A DNA stretch of 64,000 nt from Escherichia phage vB_EcoS_AKFV33. The stretch is taken from sequence record NC_017969.1; one strand, given 5' to 3'. The notes under the pieces were generated by a model. That model made no database searches. It was given only the letters and a program-made list of their open reading frames with translations, and was not told the origin of the DNA. Positions 1-11,172 of this stretch are shown here, piece by piece. The first letter of the stretch is position 1. The number at the start of each line of letters is the position of its first letter. A program made the position numbers and the translations under genes.

Positions 1-120
1 CCAGTGGGTTGGGGGAGAATACTTAGTCTGCTAACCGCCACCCCCGTTACTATTAGCAAGGTAATTGTTTCATCCTGCAACCATTTTAATTGCAGGATGA
101 AACTATTTCAACTTTAATTA

Positions 121-855
121 TTACGCAACTTTTAATTTCTCCATGTATTGTTGCGGGCTGCAACTATATTCTGCGCGTTCTTCCTCGGTCATACCTTCCC
201 AACATAATTTCAAACGATCAGCTAGGAATTGATAATCATTATCATCATCGAGGGATTCATCAATAAAGGTTTCACCTATTAATGCCACGCCGATTGATAG
301 AATATCGTTAACGGCTTGTGCGTCCAGTGTTTTAAATCCGTATGACGCTGCCGCTGATAGCACGCCTTTATGATCATCAATCATTGTAAAATCAGCGTTC
401 GGATATAACTGTTTAAATAACTCAAAATAATAAGATTTATACACTGCGTCCTTGCTGTGGTATATTTCGCTAACCTTATCAGCTTTAAAATATTTATGCA
501 GTGTGTCGCGGGAAAACACGCGGATATTGCTTTTATCACGACCACGCAAGCCTTGTTTGCGCAGGAAGTAATAATCTGATTTGCTCATTAGTCGAGCGGT
601 GCAAATAATGTTTAAAGTATTTGAGTCATTCATGCACTGGCGCATGTATTCAACTAATGGTAATAAAGTATCTTGCATTATTAAATGATGTTTGCAGGCT
701 TCATTTTTATACTTATTTAAATCTAAATTACCCTCATTATCAAAGCAAGGCGCTACACGATGGAAAGAATTAATGATAGTGCCGTCTAAATCCCAAATCA
801 TGACGCGGGAAATATGCGGGAAGCTGCGGGAAATATTCATAATAGCTTTATTCAT
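121..855 (-). CDS. dmp: 5'-deoxyribonucleotidase, HAD-family phosphatase (pre-early)
   Basis: 244 aa ORF; N-terminal HAD motif I (WDLDGTII); first gene of leftward pre-early operon as in T5-like phages. Confidence 0.8.
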   Translation of the reverse strand: MNKAIMNISRSFPHISRVMIWDLDGTIINSFHRVAPCFDNEGNLDLNKYKNEACKHHLIMQDTLLPLVEYMRQCMNDSNTLNIICTARLMSKSDYYFLRKQGLRGRDKSNIRVFSRDTLHKYFKADKVSEIYHSKDAVYKSYYFELFKQLYPNADFTMIDDHKGVLSAAASYGFKTLDAQAVNDILSIGVALIGETFIDESLDDDNDYQFLADRLKLCWEGMTEEERAEYSCSPQQYMEKLKVA

Positions 856-941
856 TTGTTACGTTCTCCATTTAAGGGATTAGATTAATTCAATCTAGCC
901 CACTAATTATATTTTATTAGTGGGCTATGTTCAATTAACTA

Positions 942-1343
942 TTAGAACACCAGACCAAAAGCAAGAGCATCAGCGATAAAACTAACATCCTCACCTGATA
1001 CATGGGAACGAATACCCGCGCAGGTATATACTTTTGCACTGATCAATTGATCATCGAGGCAAGCGAGGCAAGGCGCGACAACTGCAAAGGCTAGGCCGGA
1101 TTTTACGGCGTCGATGATAATCGTTTCTTGTTTCACAGTGTCAACATAAACACCTTTTGCTTTAATATGGCTGGTTAGTTTACCTTGCATATATGCAAAG
1201 GTAGTAACCTGCAAGGCGTCGTTAAAGTCCAATAGCTCATCAATAACGTGCCCCGCCTCGACGTGGTAACGTTCGCCATTAGAATAAACCAGAACAATTG
1301 AGGATTGAGCGCGATCGAATGGAATGCGATTAGATTTAGCCAT
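942..1343 (-). CDS. hypothetical pre-early protein
   Basis: 133 aa ORF; conserved AATCCC..GGAG-type leader upstream. Confidence 0.5.
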   Translation of the reverse strand: MAKSNRIPFDRAQSSIVLVYSNGERYHVEAGHVIDELLDFNDALQVTTFAYMQGKLTSHIKAKGVYVDTVKQETIIIDAVKSGLAFAVVAPCLACLDDQLISAKVYTCAGIRSHVSGEDVSFIADALAFGLVF

Positions 1344-1379
1344 GTTTATAACTCCAATTAGTTTAATAAGGGGTTTAAT

Positions 1380-1637
1380 TTATTTGATAATAATCTGCAT
1401 CTGGTACGGCGTTAATTCACCGTTTACGGGTAAGTTATTATCGCTTAGCCACTCATAAAAAGCACCATCATCATCAAAAGGGACAATATCGTTATCACGG
1501 GAATCGACGGAAATAATACCATCCGTATTAGTTTTGGCGGCTAGGATAGGTCCGAAGCTGTAAACTTTATCGGATTCCATTTCATCCGGTGAAATGAATA
1601 CTTTTTCGTCCAATGTTTTGGGTAATGTAACTTTCAT
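1380..1637 (-). CDS. hypothetical pre-early protein
   Basis: 85 aa ORF, acidic, SD upstream. Confidence 0.45.
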   Translation of the reverse strand: MKVTLPKTLDEKVFISPDEMESDKVYSFGPILAAKTNTDGIISVDSRDNDIVPFDDDGAFYEWLSDNNLPVNGELTPYQMQIIIK

Positions 1638-1694
1638 TCTAATTTAGCTCCTATAATAGCGGCTATATTTCAAGCCGCTAGGGTAATAATTTAA

Positions 1695-3359
1695 TTATGC
1701 AAAGAATTTACCGTTTTTAAAGTCAATCAAAGTGCGCTGACCGTTTGCATAGGTAATTAAATGCGTTTGCGTCCAGCTTGACGCGCCAACGTTGTAACCC
1801 ATGTCCAGACTACCAGCTACGCCAGCGGTGTATACGCCACCGTAAATGCTGGCGGTATGAGTGTGTCCAGTGTTCAGTTTACCCAATTTCTTAAACTGTT
1901 TCGGATTGCCACGGCTGCCGTTAATGCCGTTGTGACCGTGTACGCCGCATTCAATGCCTGCAATCTTGAAAGATTGATCAGTAGTCAGGAAAATGGCGTT
2001 AAATTCACAACCTGCAACCTTGCGCAGCGCATAATCTAGCACGTTGAAGGTGTCGTCTTTTTCTGCAATAGCTCCATAAATCGCGGCATTTAGGCGGTGA
2101 TATAGTTCGGCGTTGGCGGGATCGTCTTTGATGTTAGCATTACGATCATCCAGCCAACGGGATAACGCCAGATCATGGTTAGATTCAACAATGATTGTTT
2201 GAGAAAAATCGCGCTCCATTGACTCCAACACGCGCCCCGTATCGATAAGATCATCCAGAACTTTATCACGTCCGGCGGCATACTGTTTTGCTAGGAATAC
2301 ACCGGATGCGCGGTTATGATGATTGCGGGATGTAAAATCATGCACGTCATGCACAAACTGATATTTTGGTTTAAGAATATCAAGCAAGCTATTTTCGCCA
2401 GCCCATGACGCAACGGCACAATCATCATCCAGTTTTTCGGCGTGAATATCGCCATATTGCAAGCCTAAAACATGCCCCGACGTTTCATAGCATCCGGCAG
2501 GAGTAGCGCAAACATTCAGATCATAAAATACCCCGCTTTCATCCATCGTTTCAAGCTGGCGAACAAAAAACTCACCGTCTTCGTCGAACTCGACAACAAG
2601 CGCACCGAAATTATGCAATGCTTCGGCTTTTTGTCCTGCCTTCTGCTGAATGTAGTTTTTGAGCGTTGCCGTTCCAGTTGAATACATACGGCGCACTACT
2701 TCACCTTTTAAAGCTGGCACGCTTTCGGCGGTAATTTTAGCGTGACCAATTGCCAGACCTTCCAGATTAAGCGCCGTTGCAGTTTCAGCGAATCCAGAAA
2801 GCGGATAATCTGCGGTGGGCAAAACGTTAATTTCAGCCATGAAAGCAAAACGGCGGTTATTTAAAAACACGTTTTTGCTGCAAATATATTTATCGAATGC
2901 GGAATCATATTTTATCCCATCCGCGCCCTCGCCATTTTGGAATCCGTTTTTATTATAAATATACTTAGAAACAAGCAAATCAGCACCGATAAATTGGGCA
3001 TATTGCTCCAGACTTGCTAAAAAGTTTTTATGCGGGAAAGTATTATTCTGAATCGATGTAATAATAAAGCGTTTGCCCTGCTTTACTTCCCAGCTTTCCA
3101 CCGTGCTAGAAACAATCCCCGCCGCTTCTGGGCGCTCATCGTTTTTAATGGCTTTTGCTACTTTTGCCGCTTTTGGTTTGACTGGTTTATTTGCTTCCAG
3201 CCAATCACAAATGGCGGTGGAGTGTTTAGTAGTATCGTATACCGCTTTCGAAATATCGTCACAAACTTCCAATTTAGTGGCGCGCAGACGTTTACCGTAG
3301 AAATTGAAGTCAGCGGCCATTTTCAGGATAACGGTTTGTTTTTCTGCGGAAATAATCAT
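1695..3359 (-). CDS. A1: A1-like pre-early protein with C-terminal calcineurin-like metallophosphoesterase domain
   Basis: 554 aa ORF; phosphoesterase motifs (GDIH, HGHNG, GHTH) in C-terminal half; lies between dmp and A2 as in T5. Confidence 0.8.
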   Translation of the reverse strand: MIISAEKQTVILKMAADFNFYGKRLRATKLEVCDDISKAVYDTTKHSTAICDWLEANKPVKPKAAKVAKAIKNDERPEAAGIVSSTVESWEVKQGKRFIITSIQNNTFPHKNFLASLEQYAQFIGADLLVSKYIYNKNGFQNGEGADGIKYDSAFDKYICSKNVFLNNRRFAFMAEINVLPTADYPLSGFAETATALNLEGLAIGHAKITAESVPALKGEVVRRMYSTGTATLKNYIQQKAGQKAEALHNFGALVVEFDEDGEFFVRQLETMDESGVFYDLNVCATPAGCYETSGHVLGLQYGDIHAEKLDDDCAVASWAGENSLLDILKPKYQFVHDVHDFTSRNHHNRASGVFLAKQYAAGRDKVLDDLIDTGRVLESMERDFSQTIIVESNHDLALSRWLDDRNANIKDDPANAELYHRLNAAIYGAIAEKDDTFNVLDYALRKVAGCEFNAIFLTTDQSFKIAGIECGVHGHNGINGSRGNPKQFKKLGKLNTGHTHTASIYGGVYTAGVAGSLDMGYNVGASSWTQTHLITYANGQRTLIDFKNGKFFA

Positions 3360-3449
3360 AGTAATAAAACTCCATTAAAGGGATTAGGTTAATAACGGCA
3401 ATATTGCCAAATATAACGCCTCGAACAATAGGCGTTATAATTTGCAACA

Positions 3450-3647
3450 TTAATTTAAAGGCATAAGGCTAGAACTAACACCACAAGCAACGGCGGCAAT
3501 AAAACAAATCAGACCTAAACGTTTTGCTAATTTAGATTTACGTTTAAAATAATACGAATCTAAATCATTTTGAAAATAAGCGAACAATAACGAGGCCGCC
3601 ATAATAAATAAGCCTAGAATTAAAGATTCAGTAGGGAAGAAAACCAT
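3450..3647 (-). CDS. small membrane protein
   Basis: 65 aa ORF with hydrophobic segments; conserved leader motif upstream. Confidence 0.4.
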   Translation of the reverse strand: MVFFPTESLILGLFIMAASLLFAYFQNDLDSYYFKRKSKLAKRLGLICFIAAVACGVSSSLMPLN

Positions 3648-3738
3648 TTTTTAAAACTCCTGATTTAAGGGAAGAAAATAACTATCGCTAAACAGTTATA
3701 TTATTGCCCCCTCACTAGAAGGGGGCAAGGTATAACTA

Positions 3739-4146
3739 TTATTCCCCTGCGGCTTGTTTTACTTCATCGGCAACGCCTAGCAGTTGCGCTACGGCGTCCA
3801 GCGTTTCAAGTTTTGCACTTTCCAGACTTGCCAGATCATCGGCGTCTTTGATAATGCCGGAATCAATAGCATGTTTAGCGATAACGCGCACATAGTGAGC
3901 TTTACGCACAGAGCTACCGCCGCCAACTTTACGCGGCTTATCGCTTTTTTGATAGGCTTTTGCACTGGTCAATTTTGACCGAACGGATACGGGAGAAGCC
4001 GCGCCTACTGCTTTTGCAATCTCTTTTAAACCGTCGCTATTTGCGAAATCTAAACCGTTTTCATTGATTAACTGCTGGTACATAGAAACAGCTTTCTGAG
4101 TGTTTTCTTCGTTCCATGCGAATTTTGCGGTTTTTGCGTTAGTCAT
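3739..4146 (-). CDS. A2: A2-like pre-early protein
   Basis: 135 aa ORF directly upstream of A1 in operon order; size and position match T5 A2. Confidence 0.65.
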   Translation of the reverse strand: MTNAKTAKFAWNEENTQKAVSMYQQLINENGLDFANSDGLKEIAKAVGAASPVSVRSKLTSAKAYQKSDKPRKVGGGSSVRKAHYVRVIAKHAIDSGIIKDADDLASLESAKLETLDAVAQLLGVADEVKQAAGE

Positions 4147-4247
4147 GATTGTAGCTCCTGTTAGTTTAATTTAAGGGATAAGATTAACATAATGTTAATC
4201 GTTATATACCCCGAACTACTGGGGTATATAAAGTTAACACTATAAAT

Positions 4248-4499
4248 TTATGCTACGGCTTCCCATTTTTCGTTGCGTTGAACAACCTTTACAACGTCGC
4301 CGGATTTAACGCGAACGCTAAAAACGGTTTTGCCGTTGTTACTACGTTCATTTTCAGCGTATACCGCGTCGATTGTATCAAATGGCATAAGCGCCGCGCC
4401 TTTAATGCGTTCGGCCTTTCCGGTTAATTCATCCGTTTTAGTAACGAAAGGAATAAAAACGGATTGACCAATTTTAGGCGCGGTAATAACGTTTTGCAT
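4248..4499 (-). CDS. hypothetical pre-early protein
   Basis: 83 aa ORF; conserved leader motif upstream. Confidence 0.45.
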   Translation of the reverse strand: MQNVITAPKIGQSVFIPFVTKTDELTGKAERIKGAALMPFDTIDAVYAENERSNNGKTVFSVRVKSGDVVKVVQRNEKWEAVA

Positions 4500-4732
4500 A
4501 GTATAAACTCCAGTTATTTAGGGGATTGTTCCGCATTACCTGCTAGAAAAGTAGTGGCAGGTAATAAGTAACAATCCGCTCGCCAATATAATCAATTTAA
4601 AGAACTCCACGCAGGCTGCTATATCCCAGTTAGGGGGCAGGATGATTTATGGGGAATCACCTAACCGTCAAATTTTATCAAGTTATCGCTCTTTTCGAAC
4701 TGGGTACATCTTAAAACCTATCGGCTAGGTTG

Positions 4733-4936
4733 TCAAACGGTTTTTTGCAGTTTTTTATGATTTTCTTTTAGGTCAATCATAATATTTCGCCAGATCATTT
4801 CCAGACCTTGCTGGCGACCTTTCTTGTACTGCGTGAATCGGTATTTTACCGATCTTTGCGCTACTGTCAACAAATTTTTTGTTTTGCTATCTAGTGCCTT
4901 AATAGGCTTGCCAGTGATCAAAAGCGTTTGTTTCAT
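4733..4936 (-). CDS. hypothetical protein
   Basis: 67 aa basic ORF. Confidence 0.3.
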   Translation of the reverse strand: MKQTLLITGKPIKALDSKTKNLLTVAQRSVKYRFTQYKKGRQQGLEMIWRNIMIDLKENHKKLQKTV

Positions 4937-5223
4937 ATCGTCGATTCCTTATAATGAATAAGTTTACCGCCGATAGGCTTTAAGATATACCCAATTTTTA
5001 AAGAGCGTGGCGGTAAACTTCCCGCCGTGTAGTTCGTCATTGCCGCCCTACGAGATAAATAATAGGGGATTCCCGAAAATGGCGCAACCTTATTTTTGTA
5101 AAGAAACGTAAAGACACGATCCACCGAACGGCGTGCGGCGACCTGGGCGCGGCGCATTAAAATTAAAAGAAACGGGCGCGCGAATACCACAAAACAAAGC
5201 AAATAGGCAAGTAATTTTTTCAT
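4933..5223 (-). CDS. hypothetical protein with N-terminal signal/TM segment
   Basis: 96 aa ORF, N-terminus MKKLLAYLLCFVVFA. Confidence 0.35.
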   Translation of the reverse strand: MKKLLAYLLCFVVFARPFLLILMRRAQVAARRSVDRVFTFLYKNKVAPFSGIPYYLSRRAAMTNYTAGSLPPRSLKIGYILKPIGGKLIHYKESTI

Positions 5224-5393
5224 TTATATTTGCTTTCCCCTACTTGACAAAATCTAAAAAGCTCGTGGTAGCGATAAACGGCTTATCCCCTTATGATGGG
5301 ATGGCTAAAAACTTCATCGCGTTCTAGGGCGTTTTAGACGTGTTCTAGCCCTGTTGATAACTTATCCCCAAAAGCAAAAATGAAATTTTCCTA

Positions 5394-5429
5394 GTTATCC
5401 ACTTGACTTTTATTTTCCAGTGGATAACT
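5394..5429. promoter_or_regulatory. inverted pair of DnaA-box-like sites (AGTTATCCAC / GTGGATAACT) with 16-bp spacer
   Basis: perfect 10-bp inverted repeat containing TTATCCAC. Confidence 0.45.
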
Positions 5430-5678
5430 ACTTATTTTATAAAATTAATTAATTGACTTTTATTTGTTAGTATGTATCGGAAAGATAGCAGACTAATAAT
5501 TACTAGAATAATAACCATGCTGGTGGATTGTAACGGCCTAAACTATCAGCAGACTATTAATCACGAAAAATCTCGTTAGCTAACTAACTATTTCATGATG
5601 TATAATATACATATAAATTAATGAGAAATAATAACTATAAGAAACTATCGGCCTAAGTGAGAACCACTATCATTTAAG

Positions 5679-5771
5679 TTATCCACAAGTTTATTAACAG
5701 CACAAAATGATTTGACACGATAGGCGGCGATATAAAGACTTATCCACAGACTTATCCACAGGTTATCCTAC
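5679..5771. promoter_or_regulatory. cluster of DnaA boxes (TTATCCACA x3 plus TTATCCTAC)
   Basis: exact matches to DnaA box consensus at about 5679, 5740, 5752. Confidence 0.5.
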
Positions 5772-5786
5772 TGTATAAATATACAG
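5740..5786. repeat. left arm of inverted repeat (CTTATCCACAG..TTATCCTACTGTATAAATATACAG)
   Basis: reverse-complement copy found at 8876-8911. Confidence 0.5.
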
Positions 5787-6053
5787 GGTAGAAAGGTAGT
5801 GTTAACAACTGCAATCAATTTTAAGCGGCCTAAAACGCTTTCTAACGAGCTAAATGCGGTGGGATAATATTAAAGTAAAGCCTTCACCCGTCGCCCTGGT
5901 GGCTTCGCCGTGGTTTGCTCTTTATTACACCGCTGCGCGGTTAGCATAAAACTAGGCGCTAGGCAAGGAAAATAAAAAGGTAAAATAATATTTGCCCCTA
6001 GAAAGAAAATACCTTTATCATTCACTCACCGATTAACGAGGGAGGCCGAACAA

Positions 6054-7046
6054 ATGAGGCTTTATAAACCTGATAATGCCACCGTTTTAAAAGGTGCATT
6101 GCGTAACCTGCTGGACGGTAGCAGGTCAACCAGCATCAAACATTTTGTTTTCAATATTGAAACTATTCATCGTAATTTTATTGATGATTATGATGCTTAT
6201 AATATGAATAGTTTTCTACCGTTATATAAACAAGGGGCAACGCTTGTTTTATATAATCAGGATTATCAATTGCTTACTAGCAGGGGGTCGGATACTGATT
6301 TCATAATCGTAAAAGGTAGCACAGTAAAAGCCTATGATACCGGGGCGGGCTTAGAAGTTTTCACAATAGAAAACTATGAGGCTAATGATAATGATCTTTA
6401 TGATGTAGAAAATTTTCTCGATTCATTTTGGCGTTATTTATCAGTTGGCTGGAATCGATCAGATTATGACGGGTATCGTTTTGCGGCTGTAATGGCTTTT
6501 GATGATAACGGTAATTTTTTGTTACCGTCGGAATTATGCCCTTATGTATATAATGATCTAATAGAAGAGGCTGGTTTTTCTTTCTGGAAAGATGATGATC
6601 AGCCCATTGACAATACAGAAAAACATGCTGTAAATTCTAACACTCAAAGCGTTAATACTCAAATCACTGAAAACAAAGGAAAAAACACCATGACCAAGAT
6701 CGCTAATATTGTTGCCGCTAATAAATCCGCTGTTGTAAATGCTGCAAAACTGGAAGCGGGTAAAATTGCACTGACTCAAATCACGAAAGTAGCGGCTAAA
6801 AAAGCACCGTTTATTATCAAGGGTTATATTGATACGCCGATTGGTCGGGTAGTGATTGCCAACCTGCTGAGCGTAGCGGTTGACCAGTACGCCCCTAGCA
6901 ACCAAAAAGCGAAAGCGGTAGCGGGCGCAGCTATGGAAGCGGCCATGTTAGAAATGGTGCAATCTTTTAACATTGCTGAGATGATTGATGAAATGGTGAA
7001 AGGTATTGATATTTCTACTTTTACCGTTAACAACGAAAGCGAGTAA
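6054..7046 (+). CDS. hypothetical protein (rightward pre-early cassette)
   Basis: 330 aa ORF with strong SD (GAGGGAGG) 7 nt upstream of ATG; Ala/Lys-rich C-terminal half. Confidence 0.6.
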   Translation: MRLYKPDNATVLKGALRNLLDGSRSTSIKHFVFNIETIHRNFIDDYDAYNMNSFLPLYKQGATLVLYNQDYQLLTSRGSDTDFIIVKGSTVKAYDTGAGLEVFTIENYEANDNDLYDVENFLDSFWRYLSVGWNRSDYDGYRFAAVMAFDDNGNFLLPSELCPYVYNDLIEEAGFSFWKDDDQPIDNTEKHAVNSNTQSVNTQITENKGKNTMTKIANIVAANKSAVVNAAKLEAGKIALTQITKVAAKKAPFIIKGYIDTPIGRVVIANLLSVAVDQYAPSNQKAKAVAGAAMEAAMLEMVQSFNIAEMIDEMVKGIDISTFTVNNESE

Positions 7047-7073
7047 TAGCTAACCTAGTGTAAAGTTTTGTAA

Positions 7074-7100
7074 AGGTCGCCTTTTATGGTGGCCTTTTTT
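7074..7100 (+). terminator. rho-independent terminator candidate
   Basis: hairpin AGGTCGCC/GGTGGCCT (with G-U pairs) followed by TTTTTT. Confidence 0.45.
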
Positions 7101-7162
7101 GTTATAATGCCTTTACACCAAAACGGTGGATTGAAAATTTCCCAAAAAATTGGAGGCTTATA

Positions 7163-7393
7163 ATGGTTGCTTACTCTTCTGCTAGTCATCTGTTCACCGC
7201 TCAAGGCTGGGTATCTAACCGCGTTATTATTCACGAAATGGTGCAAGAATATGGCATTGCTAAAACTTATAACACCATTCAGGAATTATATAACGCTGAT
7301 AAGATTGATCAGCAAACGGCTGGCTTTTTGCTAGATACCCTGAAAGCTGAACATTGCACTAAAAAACAAGCCGCTAAAATTGTTTTAATGTAA
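7163..7393 (+). CDS. hypothetical protein
   Basis: 76 aa ORF, SD GGAGG upstream. Confidence 0.45.
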   Translation: MVAYSSASHLFTAQGWVSNRVIIHEMVQEYGIAKTYNTIQELYNADKIDQQTAGFLLDTLKAEHCTKKQAAKIVLM

Positions 7394-7400
7394 TTAATAA

Positions 7401-7421
7401 CGGGGGATATTATATCCCCCG
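7401..7421 (+). terminator. stem-loop (CGGGGGATAT/TATATCCCCCG), terminator-like
   Basis: perfect 10-bp palindrome just after stop of 7163-7393. Confidence 0.3.
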
Positions 7422-7442
7422 ATAACTAGGAGGCTATCACAA

Positions 7443-7592
7443 ATGGTTATTTTTCGAGCTATTTTAGCGGGTATCTTGGGCGCTATTTTATCTTTGTTTG
7501 CAATAGCTTTCGGCGTTCACGCGGTTATTATCGGCGCGGGTATCGCTGTATTTTCTTATCTGCTGGGCTGCATGACTAGTAAAGGAGAATAA
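7443..7592 (+). CDS. small hydrophobic peptide (49 aa)
   Basis: ATG preceded by SD AGGAGG; product MVIFRAILAGILGAILSLFAIAFGVHAVIIGAGIAVFSYLLGCMTSKGE; below ORF-track size cutoff. Confidence 0.4.
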   Translation: MVIFRAILAGILGAILSLFAIAFGVHAVIIGAGIAVFSYLLGCMTSKGE

Positions 7593-7594
7593 AA

Positions 7595-7807
7595 ATGATC
7601 CGCAACGTTTCTCTTGCACGTTCGAAAGGCTTTAAGCTGGTGGATGCTAACACGTTCGAGCGTCCAGATTGTAAAATCGAATATGTAGCACGTAATAAAA
7701 ATGCCTTTCGTGTTACCGAGAAAAAATTCGACAAGCGCGGCAACGTGATCGCTGAAACGGTTAAACACTTTGCCACCTTTTACGCTGCGTTTCGTGGGGT
7801 ACTATGA
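7595..7807 (+). CDS. hypothetical protein
   Basis: 70 aa ORF, SD AAAGGAG upstream. Confidence 0.45.
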   Translation: MIRNVSLARSKGFKLVDANTFERPDCKIEYVARNKNAFRVTEKKFDKRGNVIAETVKHFATFYAAFRGVL

Positions 7808-7947
7808 AAAGCGTTATTGTTATTATCCTTGCAATGGTTAGCGGTTTTACCGCCACCTTATTTAAAAATGACCCCATTTCGTTGGGGATCTTTATGCTTT
7901 TATCTGGCTATCTGATCGGGAGGCTAACAAATGATTCAGCAAATTAA
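7804..7947 (+). CDS. small membrane peptide (47 aa)
   Basis: ATGA start/stop overlap with upstream gene; hydrophobic product MKSVIVIILAMVSGF... Confidence 0.35.
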   Translation: MKSVIVIILAMVSGFTATLFKNDPISLGIFMLLSGYLIGRLTNDSAN

Positions 7948-8053
7948 AACGGCTTTTCGTTTTTGGGGCGTCCTGCCTTCAATCGGTTTTATTCTGATAA
8001 TCATTAGTCAGCTAATGATTATAGGAGGAACTATTTGGGAGCTATGCAAATGA
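7931..8053 (+). CDS. small membrane peptide (40 aa)
   Basis: ATG with SD GGGAGG upstream; hydrophobic product MIQQIKTAFRFWGVLPSIGFILIII... Confidence 0.3.
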   Translation: MIQQIKTAFRFWGVLPSIGFILIIISQLMIIGGTIWELCK

Positions 8054-8394
8054 TAATTTATGAAGGCAATCGCTTTGTTGCTAATTGCCGTACGGCATTA
8101 CTAGCAAATTACTTAAATCAGCTTTCCCCAGCTTACAAGGGCGTTATTAATATTTATGAGGGCAAGGCGCATTATAAAATCAATGCGGTCGTTGCCCGTG
8201 AACTAGCGTTTCAATTTTTGACCTTTGCATCTTGTGACGTTCAGGTTATGGGTGAGGCATTAATTGCAGAAAATGAAGATGATTTTATTAATATTTTCCG
8301 CAAGATATGCACCGAGCGGCTGATAATGAAAGGCGCATATATTCAATCCACTGCGGATAGCATTGAAACAGCATTTCGAAAGGTGGCGCAGTGA
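8044..8394 (+). CDS. hypothetical protein
   Basis: ORF track 8035-8394 begins at a TTG; ATG at 8044 has SD AGGAGG upstream. Confidence 0.5.
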   Translation: MQMIIYEGNRFVANCRTALLANYLNQLSPAYKGVINIYEGKAHYKINAVVARELAFQFLTFASCDVQVMGEALIAENEDDFINIFRKICTERLIMKGAYIQSTADSIETAFRKVAQ

Positions 8395-8422
8395 GATAAT
8401 CAACTAATAACGGAGCGTTATT

Positions 8423-8617
8423 ATGAGCAATAAAATTATTGTAACCAAAACTAGTACAATGGTTGATATTTTTTACGTGCCCGATACGCCGGAAAACCGA
8501 CAAGCGGTCGAGCGTGGCGAATATGATAAAGTGATTTATGATCACGATGGTTATTATCATTATTTGGTAGATTCCTATGGGGAGGAGGAAAAAATCACGC
8601 ACCGACTACCGGACTAA
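8423..8617 (+). CDS. hypothetical protein
   Basis: 64 aa ORF, SD GGAG upstream. Confidence 0.45.
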   Translation: MSNKIIVTKTSTMVDIFYVPDTPENRQAVERGEYDKVIYDHDGYYHYLVDSYGEEEKITHRLPD

Positions 8618-8658
8618 TAATCACGGGGCGCAACTATCAGGAAGTGCCCCCAATTCTC

Positions 8659-8679
8659 AAATGAGAATGATTCTCATTT
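8659..8679. repeat. perfect palindrome AAATGAGAATGATTCTCATTT
   Basis: operator-like dyad symmetric site. Confidence 0.5.
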
Positions 8680-8875
8680 GACCGCGCTCGCGATGGTTAG
8701 CCTGCTAATGGTTAGGGTGTTACGTGTCGCCTTGTGTGATCGTTAGCGGGCTAACTAATTTTCAAGCCTCCTCCAATTTTGCCCTTGTTTTAGTATCTCC
8801 ACCAAAATTAAACGCGTTAGAATGCGATCTAGGACGTTTTAGCGGTATATTAGAATTATTCACTACATAGGAATA

Positions 8876-8911
8876 CTGTATATTTATACAGTAGGATAAG
8901 CTGTGGATAAG
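8876..8911. repeat. right arm of inverted repeat with DnaA box (CTGTATATTTATACAGTAGGATAAGCTGTGGATAAG)
   Basis: reverse complement of 5740-5786 region. Confidence 0.5.
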
Positions 8912-9002
8912 TCTGTTAATAACGCTTCAAAATGGCTAGGATTCTGTCAAATCAAATCGTGCTGTTAATAAGTCTGAGGATAACTTAAATAATAGTGTTT
9001 CT

Positions 9003-9175
9003 CACTTCCATTCTTAAATGCGAATCATTATCATTCGCATTTCACTATCTAACCGATAATCACTCCACTTTTTAAATGAGAATCATTTCACTTTTTGAAT
9101 AGCTCTCATTTCACTTCTTAAATGAGAATAATTATCATTTGCATTCCACTTCTTAAATGATAATGATTCTCATTC
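9003..9175. repeat. four direct copies of ~22-bp motif CACTTCTTAAATGAGAATCATT (some internally palindromic)
   Basis: copies near 9003, 9063, 9107, 9148. Confidence 0.5.
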
Positions 9176-9180
9176 AAAGT

Positions 9181-9200
9181 CGCAGGGCAATTGCCCTGCG
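9181..9200 (+). other. perfect 20-bp palindrome CGCAGGGCAATTGCCCTGCG (hairpin, terminator-like)
   Basis: followed by CTTTTG. Confidence 0.35.
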
Positions 9201-9205
9201 CTTTT

Positions 9206-9943
9206 GTGCAAATCCGACATTGCTCCACGGGTGTTACGTGCGGGCATGTATGTGCGAATCCGACAATTTTTGGTAGTGTGCAAATCCGACCCGAAAAATT
9301 TTTATAGTGTGCAAATCCGACAATGAATTTTCCCAAAAACTCCAGCAATCCGATGCTGCGCATCAATCCTGTGGAATTAGCTAGAATATGTGCAAATCCG
9401 ACATGGGTTTATTTGTGCGAAACCGACAAGATTTTTGTGACTTCGATTGGAGGGTGTGTGATTGTATGGGTTTGGGGAGAAGATAAGAGAGCGAGAGAAA
9501 TTTGGGAGGCTAGAAGGATGGGGCGCATGTTTGGTGCGGAGCACCTGATTTGCGGGGATTTTGGGGAAGAGTTGAGAAGATTTGGGTTAATTTGAGATAA
9601 GTGCAGAAAAAGTAAAATTTTATTAGCAAAATGGGGCAAAATAGCTTGACAAGTGAAAATTTCTGTGGCTCTAAAAACTCAGGCAATCATGGGCCTTCGG
9701 CCCGAAATAATGCTGCCATTTTCAGGAGATTATGTGTCCATGAAAACTTAGGCAATTGTGCAAATCCGACCAGTTTTTAAACTTATGTCAGTGTGCAAAT
9801 CCGACAGTAATTTCTGTAAATGTGTTTTCAAAAAATGTCTCCTAGAAATAACCGCCCTCCCAATAACCGCCCTGTATAGGAAAACCGGCCTAGGATATTT
9901 ATAGCAGGAGAGAAACTGCCCTATAATATGTGCAAATACGACA
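9206..9943 (+). repeat. array of nine direct 14-bp repeats GTGCAAATCCGACA (iteron-like)
   Basis: copies at about 9206, 9251, 9277, 9308, 9389, 9414, 9767, 9792, 9930, all in the same orientation, 0-2 mismatches. Confidence 0.6.
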
Positions 9944-10281
9944 GGATTTTCCTAGAAACTTAGGAGTCTACTAGAAAGTGTTGTGCCATCCTAGGAAGAG
10001 CGGTGGCAACAAGTGTATCATCTTGAATGTAAATTATGTGGTCAAAAGTTTTACCTTTAATTTAAGTATAAGATCCCCCAAAGATTGGAAGAGATGCTCC
10101 ACCCCTGGGATACGAATTGCGTGAGATGGTACAAAACTTCTTAAGATTTCCCTAGCCCTTCGACAAGCTACGGGGGAAATAGAAGTTTCCCATCCACTAT
10201 CCGTATCCGGGTGGATCTCTTTATTCTATGTTATTTCATAGAGTTATTATAACATGCAGAAATCATAACGTCAAGTAGAGT

Positions 10282-11172
10282 TTATTCATCGAACATGAGA
10301 TTTCCTTTCATCCCCATCTCCGCATACTCCATGAGTTCTTTGATGGATCTCACGGGGTAATCTACTTTACTAAAGTTATCATAGATCTTGCACGAACTCT
10401 CGTACAACTCGTTAGGTATCTGCAATTTGTTATCTGTTAGCTTCTCATAACGTGCAGAAGAATTTGTACCCTCAAATAGAACTGCGATAACTGCGGCGAT
10501 TTGTTTAGTAAGATCATCTGCTCCTAGAATTATTCTATTAATAGCAATCGTTACTTCATGCTTAGGTTTAGCAGGCGGAAGGATAGGTTTGAGATCCTTA
10601 GGTAAAGGTTCTGTTCCTAGGAATCCTTCTTTTGTGCGGAACCAATAATTATCTAGATCAGATATCGTCTTAGACTTATTCCAAATAGTAAAGCAGGGTT
10701 TATTTCCTTCACGATCTCTGTATTCACGAACTGGAAGGTAATGATCAGGGAATGAATTGAGTGCATCATGCATCGGTGAGCCTGTCTTTTTGAAGGACAA
10801 ACCATATAACTCATTATAATTCATAACTTCATCTTCGTAAACATGGAAATCTTTATATGCTGGAAGATTAAACCATTCCTGAAGTGAATGAACTGCAAAA
10901 CGTTGTGCCCAAGCATGCATCACTAGAACTCTGTATTCTTTTACTTCATCTTTTGGAGAAGTACCTTTAGCTGTTCTAGCTGAACGAATACAGAACATCT
11001 CAACAACACGTTTCTCATTTAAAGAGAGTTCAGAATAACAACGTTCATGGCAGCCTTCTAGCATTTCTAGAAGTTCACGTAGTTTCTCTACATCGACCGG
11101 TGGAAAAGGTCTTTCTTCAACTGCGAATTTACCAGTTACACCTTTTGGTTTTCTATTACTATAAAATCCCAT
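10282..11172 (-). CDS. hypothetical protein
   Basis: 296 aa ORF; translationally coupled (ATGA overlap) with upstream ORF. Confidence 0.55.
   Translation of the reverse strand: MGFYSNRKPKGVTGKFAVEERPFPPVDVEKLRELLEMLEGCHERCYSELSLNEKRVVEMFCIRSARTAKGTSPKDEVKEYRVLVMHAWAQRFAVHSLQEWFNLPAYKDFHVYEDEVMNYNELYGLSFKKTGSPMHDALNSFPDHYLPVREYRDREGNKPCFTIWNKSKTISDLDNYWFRTKEGFLGTEPLPKDLKPILPPAKPKHEVTIAINRIILGADDLTKQIAAVIAVLFEGTNSSARYEKLTDNKLQIPNELYESSCKIYDNFSKVDYPVRSIKELMEYAEMGMKGNLMFDE

What the first reader, a model, noticed from the sequence alone, without database searches (positions are those of the whole stretch)
856..4530. Conserved leader motif (A/T)ATCCC(T/C)T(A/T)AA..GGAG upstream of leftward pre-early genes
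The 5' leaders of dmp, the 942-1343 gene, A1, the 3450-3647 gene, A2 and the 4248-4499 gene all carry an AATCCCTTAAAT-like element ending in the SD GGAG, 7-12 nt before the start codon. The rightward pre-early genes lack it. It may be a shared translational enhancer, RNA processing site or regulator binding site specific to this operon.
Basis: seen in the sequence. Interest (0 to 1): 0.4.

Follow-up and report, generated by a model that had tools for sequence, protein, structure and literature searches.

The report
Conserved leader motif of T5 pre-early genes
Six of the seven genes in the first operon that this T5-like phage switches on carry the same short sequence (ATCCCTTWAAT) just ahead of their ribosome-binding site; the sequence is real and conserved, probably governs translation of these first genes, but its mechanism is unproven.

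Summary
The window is the left end of a T5-like phage (Demerecviridae). AATCCCTTWAAT-like elements sit 9-20 nt upstream of a GGAG Shine-Dalgarno in six of the seven leftward pre-early leaders. The pattern CCC(Y)TWA is found at 6/7 of these starts versus 1/87 other gene starts in the window (p=6e-8).

The element is not SD plus AT-rich background. The CCC is kept in 89/89 distinct dmp, A1, A2 and T5.005 leaders of relatives, although the upstream hairpins are swapped. C-rich variants recur in Klebsiella, Pectobacterium, Proteus and Vibrio relatives.

It follows gene orientation and lies in a G-free stretch that is no more paired than chance, at -23 to -31 from the start codon.

Tested and rejected:
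- an anti-SD hairpin (no excess pairing over swapped or shuffled controls);
- a sigma-70 promoter;
- an Rfam family;
- a BoxA site (8/11 match to the consensus).

Best reading: a single-stranded element of the translation initiation region, specific to the pre-early class. It is most likely a 30S/S1 landing site. The main rival is an operator for an unknown trans-acting factor. The mechanism is inferred, not shown.

Side finding: perfect rrn-type BoxA elements head this operon across the family.

The parts
870..888 (-). dmp leader motif TTAATCTAATCCCTTAAAT (core AATCCCTTAAAT at 870-881). It abuts the SD GGAG at 866-869; ATG at 853-855.
   Evidence: CCC kept in 24/24 distinct orthologous leaders
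1365..1376 (-). Leader motif of the 942-1343 gene (T5.002 homologue): AAACCCCTTATT. SD at 1352-1355.
   Evidence: CCC kept in 22/26 distinct orthologous leaders
3374..3392 (-). A1 leader motif TTAACCTAATCCCTTTAAT (core at 3374-3385). SD GGAG at 3370-3373; ATG at 3357-3359.
   Evidence: CCC kept in 25/25
3663..3674 (-). Leader motif of the 3450-3647 gene (T5.005 membrane protein): CTTCCCTTAAAT. SD at 3657-3660.
   Evidence: CCC kept in 14/14
4169..4187 (-). A2 leader motif TTAATCTTATCCCTTAAAT (core at 4169-4180). SD at 4155-4158.
   Evidence: CCC kept in 26/26; unpaired in the consensus fold
4516..4527 (-). Leader motif of the 4248-4499 gene (T5.007): AATCCCCTAAAT. SD at 4508-4511. Here AATCC is also the 3' strand of an extended stem with GGATT (hairpin 4523-4577).
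   Evidence: the third C is kept in only 12/24 relatives while AATCC is kept
896..927 (-). Intercistronic stem-loop upstream of the dmp motif. It has no U-tract and is replaced by different hairpins in relatives.
3397..3439 (-). Intercistronic stem-loops upstream of the A1 motif: TATAACGCC..GGCGTTATA, plus the palindrome TTGGCAATATTGCC.
3691..3740 (-). About 20-bp interrupted stem-loop upstream of the 3450-3647 gene motif.
4182..4230 (-). Two stem-loops upstream of the A2 motif. The proximal one (GATTAAC..GTTAATC, 4182-4200) shows compensatory changes in relatives.
4708..4870 (-). The two strong sigma-70 promoters that drive the operon: P-H22-like at 4870-4843 and P-D/E20-like at 4736-4708.
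   Evidence: 11/12 and 10/12 matches; T5 annotation; 10.64898/2026.04.02.716235
7138..7156 (+). Weak copy of the element in a rightward pre-early gene: TTTCCCAAAAAATTGGAGG, ATG at 7163.

Best explanation
The motif is a cis-acting, single-stranded RNA element of the translation initiation regions of the pre-early mRNAs.

Anatomy. The leftward operon is transcribed as a polycistronic RNA from P-H22 and P-D/E20. Its cistrons are separated by 40-100 nt spacers. All but one spacer carry stem-loops without U-tracts. Each spacer ends in a G-free A/U-rich tract that starts with the pyrimidine core (A/U)AUCCCUU, and this tract runs into a GGAG SD 8-10 nt before the AUG.

Proposed mechanism (inferred, not shown). 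The CCC lies at -23 to -31 from the start codon. From general knowledge, this is the 5' part of the stretch covered by a 30S initiation complex, where ribosomal protein S1 and the platform proteins contact mRNA. I propose that the pyrimidine core plus the A/U tract acts as a landing or standby site. It would let 30S subunits load independently and efficiently at every cistron, at a time when only host machinery is present and host mRNAs compete for ribosomes.

Because the element is confined to the pre-early class, the same site could also serve as the handle by which this class is later switched off.
For: - Orientation and position are tied to the gene. Every copy is in sense, 9-20 nt upstream of GGAG, including the one rightward copy.
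- It is far more than chance or AT-rich background.
- Purifying selection is evident. Motif columns show 0.89-0.97 pairwise identity, versus 0.75-0.79 for the other intergenic columns and 0.60-0.83 for third codon positions. CCC is kept in 89/89 distinct dmp, A1, A2 and T5.005 leaders while the upstream hairpins are exchanged.
- The same architecture (CCC, then a G-free A/T tract, then GGAG) recurs before A1, A2, dmp and their neighbours in relatives whose A1 is only 42-74% identical.
- The region is unpaired. The consensus fold leaves the motif and spacer single-stranded. T5-like leaders have fewer SD-region stems than shuffled controls, z=-3.35.
- A/U-rich, S1-dependent enhancers directly upstream of the SD are an established class (PMC2176067; 10.1101/808485).
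- In the unique 110.5 kb of the T5 genome the pattern is restricted to pre-early genes, apart from one terminator arm.
Against: - S1 and standby sites are not known to need a specific sequence, so the invariance of CCC is stronger than this model requires.
- Highly expressed early and late T5 genes lack the element.
- The exact motif+SD 16-mer is used as an RBS only in T5-like contigs of IMG/VR, not by other coliphages.
- The distance from the motif to the SD varies from 9 to 20 nt.
- There is no experimental evidence; binding and enhancement are inferred.
Confidence: 0.4

Rival explanations
1. The motif is an operator for a trans-acting factor: a phage pre-early or early protein, a host protein, or a small RNA. 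The factor would recognise AUCCCUUWAAU next to the SD and time the translation, decay or shutoff of the pre-early class. This would be analogous to T4 RegA/RegB acting on early mRNAs.
For: - The element is class-specific: pre-early genes only in T5, and FST genes of both orientations in Vibrio relatives.
- The core is invariant beyond what a generic enhancer needs.
- All seven leaders use GGAG as the SD, versus 39/87 elsewhere. GGAG is the RegB target in T4 (from memory).
- The exact motif is lineage-restricted.
- Shutoff of pre-early genes requires A1, and the mechanism is unknown (PMC10644984; 10.64898/2026.04.02.716235).
Against: - No candidate factor was found. The small operon proteins have no RNA-binding family hits. 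gp007 folds as a small beta-barrel with no significant structural match.
- No complementary sequence, and so no candidate sRNA, exists elsewhere in the window at up to 1 mismatch, other than a coding-region chance hit at 11165.
- A1 homologues outside the family lack the motif.
- The published A1 effect is on transcription.
Confidence: 0.25
2. The motif is an endonuclease processing site (for example RNase E) in the single-stranded tract between the hairpin and the SD. Cleavage would cut the polycistronic RNA into monocistronic mRNAs whose upstream halves end in protective 3' hairpins, like the RNase III sites of the T7 early operon.
For: - The layout is a stop codon, then a hairpin without a U-tract, then an A/U-rich single strand, then the SD.
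- The hairpins show compensatory changes.
Against: - The motif lacks the G/A-N-A/U-U-U features recalled for RNase E sites.
- In T5-type alleles the hairpins are only 10-12 bp, too short for a classical RNase III site.
- The leader of the 942-1343 gene has the motif but no hairpin.
- No end-mapping data were found.
Confidence: 0.1
3. The motif is a degenerate BoxA. It would recruit NusB/NusE (S10) next to each SD, as the suhB BoxA does 6 nt from its SD, linking the Nus-modified polymerase to ribosome loading.
For: - Perfect BoxA elements (GYTCTTTAANA) head this operon across the family, with 141 sense versus 7 antisense hits.
- The leader motif shares C-CTTTAA with BoxA.
- The suhB precedent places a BoxA next to an SD (PMC5725501).
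Against: - TCCCTTTAATG matches the consensus at only 8/11 positions, with G1, T3 and A11 wrong.
- Single substitutions in BoxA abolish function, and a cryptic hisG BoxA that differs at one critical position is not bound (PMC5725501).
- Klebsiella and My1 variants such as ACCCAATAAAC diverge further.
Confidence: 0.07
4. The motif has no function of its own. The leaders would be paralogous copies of one cassette, kept alike by recombination or gene conversion, and serving at most as linkers for module exchange.
For: - The sequence upstream of the motif is mosaic, with breakpoints at the motif.
- Some A1 alleles share 23 nt with the dmp leader.
- In two phages the motif of the 942-1343 gene is replaced by the hairpin of the 1380-1637 gene leader.
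Against: - The core is only 11 nt, too short for efficient homologous exchange.
- The CCC architecture persists in clades where the flanks are unalignable.
- Motif columns are more conserved than their neighbours.
Confidence: 0.08
5. The motif is an anti-SD element: CCC pairs with the Gs of GGAG to form a small hairpin that gates the SD.
For: MFE folds often pair (U)CCC with GG(A)G. By eye, Vibrio relatives seemed to co-vary (CACU/AGUG, CGCA/UGCG).
Against: - Predicted SD pairing is not higher than for other genes (0.47 versus 0.36, p=0.10).
- Each leader's own upstream half pairs with its SD no better than swapped halves do (-3.74 versus -3.82 kcal/mol, p=0.68). Shuffled halves pair better.
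- Best local stems equal the controls in distant clades (z=0.0 and -0.7) and are weaker than controls in T5-likes (z=-3.35).
Confidence: 0.04
6. The motif is an internal sigma-70 promoter, or a sigma-dependent pause element that uses TTAAAT/TTTAAT as a -10-like hexamer.
For: TTWAAT resembles TATAAT. A motif-like AATCCCCTATTAT sits in a possible promoter spacer at 5059-5074.
Against: - The promoter scan finds nothing at the six sites.
- There is no conserved -35 at a fixed distance.
- The critical A at position 2 of the hexamer is missing.
- A start site 7 nt downstream would remove the SD.
Confidence: 0.03

Closest known systems
A/U-rich, S1-dependent translational enhancers and standby sites upstream of the SD (E. 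coli TIR enhancers, PMC2176067; manY enhancer, 10.1101/808485; standby tails, PMC5934652)
   Same: Single-stranded and G-poor; lies directly 5' of the SD within the 30S footprint; acts only in sense orientation.
   Different: This element has an invariant CCC core and a defined 11-nt consensus. It is restricted to one temporal gene class of one phage family. S1 binding and enhancement are untested.
suhB-type BoxA next to an SD (Nus factor complex; PMC5725501)
   Same: A pyrimidine-rich element with CTTTAA lying 6-10 nt from the SD in a 5' leader. Genuine BoxA elements occur in the same transcription unit.
   Different: It fails the GYTCTTTAANA consensus at three positions. The suhB element represses translation. 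No binding data exist for this motif.
T4 early-gene GGAG Shine-Dalgarno sites cleaved by RegB, and the RegA translational operators (recalled from memory)
   Same: A temporal class of phage mRNAs marked by a shared feature in the ribosome-binding site. GGAG is used by all seven leaders here.
   Different: No RegB or RegA homologue was looked for or found. The extra CCC element has no T4 counterpart.
T7 early operon with intercistronic RNase III hairpins (recalled from memory)
   Same: A host-polymerase polycistronic first operon with a stem-loop between most cistrons, followed closely by the next RBS.
   Different: The hairpins here are shorter and variable, and there is no evidence of cleavage. 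The conserved part is the single strand after the hairpin, not the hairpin.
C/A-rich enhancer motifs upstream of the SD that are targets of the sRNA GcvB (PMC3879156)
   Same: A short C-containing motif immediately upstream of the SD that can both enhance translation and act as a regulatory target.
   Different: The sequence is different (ACA repeats versus AUCCCUU). No complementary sRNA was found in the window.

Membership tests
BoxA (NusB/NusE binding site) | Match to the gamma-proteobacterial consensus GYTCTTTAANA | tested here: not met
   The best leader (A1, TCCCTTTAATG) matches 8/11, with positions 1, 3 and 11 wrong. By contrast the hdi leader at 4996-5006 matches 11/11.
BoxA (NusB/NusE binding site) | Binding of NusB/NusE and recruitment of SuhB | not testable with these tools
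   Needs EMSA or ChIP.
A/U-rich S1-dependent translational enhancer / standby site | Single-stranded, A/U-rich, G-poor tract immediately upstream of the SD | tested here: met
   G-free tracts of 18-39 nt contain the motif. The consensus fold leaves it unpaired. SD-region stems are weaker than in shuffles, z=-3.35.
A/U-rich S1-dependent translational enhancer / standby site | Raises translation; binds S1 or the 30S subunit | not testable with these tools
   Needs reporter fusions, toeprinting or filter binding.
SD-sequestering hairpin (anti-SD, RNA thermometer-like) | Complementarity between the upstream element and the SD beyond chance, or covariation | tested here: not met
   Own versus swapped halves, p=0.68. 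Shuffled halves pair better. Local stem z=0.0 to -3.35.
Sigma-70 promoter | -35 and -10 hexamers with 16-18 bp spacing | tested here: not met
   The scan lists no site at any of the six motifs. The upstream sequence is not conserved at a fixed distance.
Intrinsic terminator (for the hairpins that precede the motif) | G+C-rich stem followed by a U-tract | tested here: not met
   No terminator-like site was reported at the intercistronic hairpins on the minus strand. The tails read GAUUGAAU, AUAUAACG and similar.
Any curated RNA family (Rfam 15) | Covariance-model match | tested here: not met
   Only chance-level hits (E>=0.11, far below the gathering scores) in window 1-10500.
RegB-type GGAG cleavage class (T4) | GGAG as the SD of the earliest gene class | tested here: met
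   7/7 versus 39/87, p=0.005.
RegB-type GGAG cleavage class (T4) | A RegB-like endoribonuclease encoded by the phage, and cleavage within GGAG | not tested
   The phage proteome was not screened. Cleavage needs experiments.

The most novel reading that the evidence does not exclude
The element is the operator of a dedicated, still unidentified system that gives Demerecviridae class-specific post-transcriptional control of their first-step-transfer genes. One version is a trans-acting protein or RNA that reads AUCCCUUWAAU next to GGAG to boost and then shut off pre-early translation. The other is a BoxA-derived site through which the Nus-modified polymerase, loaded at the genuine BoxA elements at the head of the operon, hands each cistron to the ribosome.
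Probability: 0.25. Interest if true: 0.65.

Novelty: new variant of a known kind. Interest (0 to 1): 0.35.

Why it matters
T5 is the classic two-step-injection phage. How its pre-early genes are expressed so strongly within minutes, and then shut off, is still not understood at the molecular level. A defined 11-nt element conserved across the family, sitting in front of A1, A2 and dmp, gives a concrete handle. Point mutations in it can test whether pre-early expression and shutoff have a translational component. The motif, together with the BoxA elements found at the head of the operon, points to host factors (S1, Nus factors) that the phage may depend on. It may also be useful as a compact ribosome-binding cassette. 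If it turns out to be only a good RBS context, the finding is of modest, local interest.

Tried and rejected
1. Anti-SD mini-hairpin (CCC:GGAG). MFE folds and eyeballed "covariation" in Vibrio relatives looked promising. Three controls showed no excess pairing, so it was rejected.
2. Internal promoters. The scan found none at the motifs, and a start site there would delete the SD.
3. BoxA membership. The motif matches 8/11 of the consensus; rejected as a member.
4. Complementarity of the dmp leader to the 16S 790 loop (GGAUUAGAU, recalled from memory). The upstream half of that match is not conserved among orthologues, and a 9-mer match is expected by chance; dropped.
5. DnaA-box or IHF-site readings. 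Checked by eye only, with poor matches; dropped.
6. A trans RNA in the window. No complementary site at up to 1 mismatch except a coding-region chance hit at 11165.
7. Rfam. Nothing.
8. Small operon proteins as RNA binders. Pfam, PHROGs and PDB searches were uninformative. The gp007 model had no significant fold match; afdb50 was unavailable.
9. Use of the exact motif+SD by other phages. Found only in T5-likes.
10. blastn of the dmp leader against E. coli genomes. No match, but the search is insensitive for short sites.
11. Literature. No paper in the library mentions the motif or high-resolution T5 pre-early transcript maps. Davison 2015 was not held, and Wang 2005 was not looked for in the library, so prior description cannot be excluded.


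Full report
**What the window is.** The first 6 kb match T5-like phages: 547 records, best 92% identity to Escherichia phage DaisyDussoix and 88% to T5. In the T5 record this is the left terminal repeat, which is the first-step-transfer (FST) DNA. It carries the leftward genes dmp, T5.002, T5.003, A1, T5.005, A2 and T5.007, downstream of promoters P-H22 and P-D/E20. The consensus scan finds both promoters in the window, at 4870-4843 (TTGACA-16-TAAAAT) and 4736-4708 (TTGACA-17-TAAGAT). A 2026 preprint treats these genes as one operon driven by those promoters (10.64898/2026.04.02.716235).

**The observation.** I read the minus strand upstream of each start codon.

| Gene | Leader sequence |
|---|---|
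| dmp | TTAATCTAATCCCTTAAAT-GGAG-N10-ATG |
| A1 | TTAACCTAATCCCTTTAAT-GGAG-N10-ATG |
| A2 | TTAATCTTATCCCTTAAAT-TAAACTAACA-GGAG-N8-ATG |
| 3450-3647 gene | CTTCCCTTAAAT-CA-GGAG-N9-ATG |
| 4248-4499 gene | AATCCCCTAAAT-AACT-GGAG-N8-ATG |
| 942-1343 gene | AAACCCCTTATT-AAACTAATT-GGAG-N8-ATG |

The 1380-1637 gene has GGAG but no motif next to it.

- WATCCCYTWAA occurs four times in 64 kb, all in these leaders and all on the minus strand. 0.64 are expected, and no shuffle reaches four.
- The 12-mer with up to 1 mismatch gives five hits, four of them in these leaders. With two mismatches the count is at chance level.

**Is it only SD plus AT-rich sequence? No.**
- I took every SD+start with an ORF of at least 60 codons in the window (94 sites). 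CCC within 26 nt upstream of the SD is present at 6/7 leftward pre-early starts and at 12/87 others (p=1.4e-4). CCC[TC]?T[AT]A is present at 6/7 versus 1/87 (p=6e-8). GGAG itself is the SD at 7/7 versus 39/87 (p=0.005).
- In the 110.5 kb unique T5 genome, 56 starts have the form GGAG-N5-10-ATG. Six have a CCC inside the G-free tract upstream. Four are leftward pre-early genes, one is the rightward pre-early gene T5.012, and one is the 3' arm of a terminator hairpin.
- The early genes carry a different, well-known shared leader (TATAAT...CATAAATTGA-GAGAGG).

**Conservation.**
- From 56 A1-centred IMG/VR loci plus GenBank relatives, I located orthologous start codons by tblastn and compared distinct leaders. 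Counts of leaders that keep CCC within 30 nt of the SD:

| Leader | CCC kept |
|---|---|
| dmp | 24/24 |
| A1 | 25/25 |
| A2 | 26/26 |
| T5.005 | 14/14 |
| T5.002 | 22/26 |
| T5.007 | 12/24 |
| T5.003 | 0/10 |

- The consensus is A-T-C-C-C-T-T-W-A-A-T.
- The start of CCC lies 9 nt before GGAG in dmp and A1, 10-11 in T5.005, 12-15 in T5.007, and 17-20 in T5.002 and A2.
- Motif columns have a mean pairwise identity of 0.89-0.97. Other intergenic columns have 0.75-0.79 and third codon positions 0.60-0.83.
- The sequence upstream of the motif is mosaic. The dmp hairpin has at least three unrelated versions, and the T5.002 leader has four or five contexts. The motif stays in place.

**Distant relatives.**
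- Phages whose A1 is only 74% (Klebsiella), 66% (Pectobacterium My1) and 42% (Proteus) identical keep "CCC, then a G-free A/T tract, then (N)GGAG". Examples are TAACCCTTAAATAAAACTGGAG, TATCCCATAATTTGATAATTTGGAG and TTTTCCCTTTAATTAGGAG.
- In Proteus-type loci, 11/17 sense RBSs and 0/11 antisense RBSs have the element (p=6e-4).
- In Vibrio/marine relatives there is no strand bias. There, genes on the opposite strand carry TTACCCTTACT-GGAG.
- The element is therefore a feature of the pre-early region of the family rather than of a single operon.
- A1 homologues in unrelated phages lack it.
- The exact 16-mer AATCCCTTWAATGGAG is followed by a start codon and a long ORF only in T5-like contigs, where the gene is always A1 or dmp. 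About 40 other IMG/VR hits have no RBS context.

**Anatomy of the leaders.**
- All but one spacer run: stop codon, one or two stem-loops, a short linker, the motif, an A/U spacer, GGAG, then 8-10 nt to ATG. The 942-1343 gene leader has no hairpin.
- The stem-loops have no U-tracts and are not reported as terminators.
- Several extend to about 20 bp with internal loops.
- The A2-proximal hairpin GATTAAC..GTTAATC keeps its pairing through compensatory changes (2 of 7 pairs), while the motif and spacer are unpaired in the consensus structure.
- In the T5.007 leader, AATCC is also the 3' strand of an extended stem with GGATT. This explains why AATCC, but not the third C, is kept in that leader.
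- The CCC lies at -23 to -31 from the A of the ATG (coordinates). From general knowledge, this falls in the 5' part of the 30S footprint.

**Hypotheses tested and rejected.**

*a) Anti-SD hairpin.* MFE folds often pair (U)CCC with GG(A)G. By eye, the Vibrio relatives seemed to co-vary (CACU/AGUG, CGCA/UGCG, CCGU/ACGG). The controls do not support it:
- Predicted SD pairing is 0.47 versus 0.36 for the other genes (p=0.10).
- Each leader's own upstream half pairs with its SD region no better than halves swapped between leaders (-3.74 versus -3.82 kcal/mol, p=0.68). Shuffled halves pair better.
- The best local stem that includes the SD equals the controls in distant clades (z=-0.7 and 0.0). It is weaker than controls in T5-likes (z=-3.35 and -1.7).
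- The leaders therefore look selected to keep the SD region open.

*b) Promoter.* There are no scan hits and no conserved -35, and a start site there would remove the SD.

*c) Rfam.* Nothing.

*d) BoxA.* The motif resembles BoxA (C-CTTTAA) but matches GYTCTTTAANA at only 8/11 positions. Single changes inactivate BoxA (PMC5725501).

*e) Trans-acting partner.* No complementary sequence occurs in the window. The small operon proteins have no informative family, PDB or fold matches.

**Best explanation and its limits.**

What is shown:
- The element is conserved.
- It is orientation-bound and single-stranded.
- It is specific to the pre-early class.
- It sits directly upstream of the SD.

What is inferred: it works on the RNA at the step of ribosome loading. 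I rate a 30S/S1 landing (standby or enhancer) function as the most likely single mechanism (0.4). A pyrimidine core in a G-free A/U tract at -20 to -35 is the place where such enhancers act (PMC2176067; 10.1101/808485; PMC5934652). The operon also needs independent initiation at each cistron after long structured spacers.

The strict invariance of CCC, the restriction to one temporal class and the restriction to one lineage fit a specific trans-acting reader at least as well. That rival is rated 0.25. The remaining rivals are a processing site (0.10), a functionless cassette (0.08), a degenerate BoxA (0.07), an anti-SD hairpin (0.04) and a promoter or pause element (0.03).

**Side finding.**
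- The leader of hdi (4733-4936), upstream of P-H22, carries a perfect BoxA (GCTCTTTAAAA, 4996-5006, minus strand). It lies just after a small hairpin at 5009-5026.
- Perfect BoxA matches occur upstream of the A2-A1-dmp genes in 101 of 128 A1-centred loci fetched (about a dozen are A1 homologues in unrelated phages). There are 141 sense hits versus 7 antisense, often 2-4 copies per locus, in every clade of the family including the Vibrio phages. Some copies read GCTCTTTAACAATTT, which is the E. coli rrn BoxA plus three bases as recalled from memory.
- No paper in the library links BoxA to T5.
- This suggests that these phages load the host Nus antitermination complex on their first transcripts. 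In the window, the two strong promoters lie downstream of this BoxA, so its role there needs transcript mapping.

**Verdict.** It is a lineage-specific variant of a known kind of element, a leader or TIR motif upstream of the SD. Its mechanism is unresolved but directly testable.

Noticed in passing
window 4996-5006 (-), hairpin 5009-5026 (-); loci L002-L131: A perfect rrn-type BoxA (GCTCTTTAAAA, matching GYTCTTTAANA) sits about 60 nt before the hdi start, just after a small hairpin. Perfect BoxA matches lie upstream of the A2-A1-dmp genes in 101/128 A1-centred loci fetched (about a dozen from unrelated phages), with 141 sense versus 7 antisense hits, often 2-4 copies, in all clades of the family including Vibrio phages. 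No paper in the library links BoxA with T5.
   Followed up: partly
window 4684-4735 (+): CGCTCTTTTCGAACTGGGTACATCTTAAAACCTATCGGC is an inverted, degenerate copy of the BoxA segment on the other side of hdi (minus strand 5008-4957). The two copies flank hdi and the two strong promoters.
   Followed up: no
window 4645-4657 (-) and 5059-5074 (-): There are two motif-like copies without an SD, in the leftward sense. ATTCCCCATAAAT lies in the roughly 200-nt 5' UTR downstream of P-D/E20. GGGAATCCCCTATTAT lies upstream of the BoxA hairpin.
   Followed up: no
window 3397-3410 (-): The palindrome TTGGCAATATTGCC in the A1 leader is conserved in T5, Epseptimavirus and Klebsiella relatives. In the MFE fold it can instead pair with the stop-codon region of the upstream gene, extending the hairpin to about 21 bp.
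   Followed up: partly
window 906-934 (-): A near-consensus promoter (TTGAAC-17-TATAAT) is embedded in the hairpin upstream of dmp. It is present in this phage and in Epseptimavirus-type alleles but absent from the T5-type allele.
   Followed up: no
window about 5390-5775: A cluster of DnaA-box sequences (TTATCCACA and variants such as TTATCCCC) lies in the untranslated repeat region. This was described before for T5-like phages (Davison, bioRxiv 10.1101/866236).
   Followed up: no
L007 about 4400-4480; also L008, L118, L120-L125: Vibrio-clade relatives carry a repeated palindrome, TTTACA(C/G)TGTAAA, one to two copies upstream of A1 and of the neighbouring gene. It looks like an operator for a dimeric DNA-binding protein.
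   Followed up: no
L020, L032 (leader of the 942-1343 gene homologue): In two phages the motif is replaced by the hairpin that normally precedes the 1380-1637 gene, and that gene is absent. This looks like a deletion by recombination between leaders.
   Followed up: no
[not shown]
   Followed up: yes
window 15497, 16007, 19444, 23986, 26112, 28589, 33868, 34953, 40007, 54344, 61757 (gene starts): Early genes share their own leader, TATAAT-N-(T/C)ATAAATTGA(T)GAGAGG, which is the known T5 early promoter plus its conserved initial transcribed region. The early and pre-early classes therefore have distinct RBS contexts.
   Followed up: no
L132, L135, L146, L148, L165, L174, L175, L181, L195: The 16-mer recurs in unrelated metagenomic viral contigs in one fixed context, TTAGCTTTATACCACGTTTTATAGAAAAAT-AATCCCTTTAATGGAG-CGTAT. 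No ORF of more than 29 codons opens after it. Its nature is unknown.
   Followed up: no
window 853-872 (-): In the dmp leader the sequence TAAATGGAG creates a stop-start overlap (UAAAUG). A 7-codon mini-ORF (MENVTNE) ends 4 nt past the dmp AUG. The A1 leader also has an AUG inside AAUGGAG. Neither AUG has its own SD.
   Followed up: no
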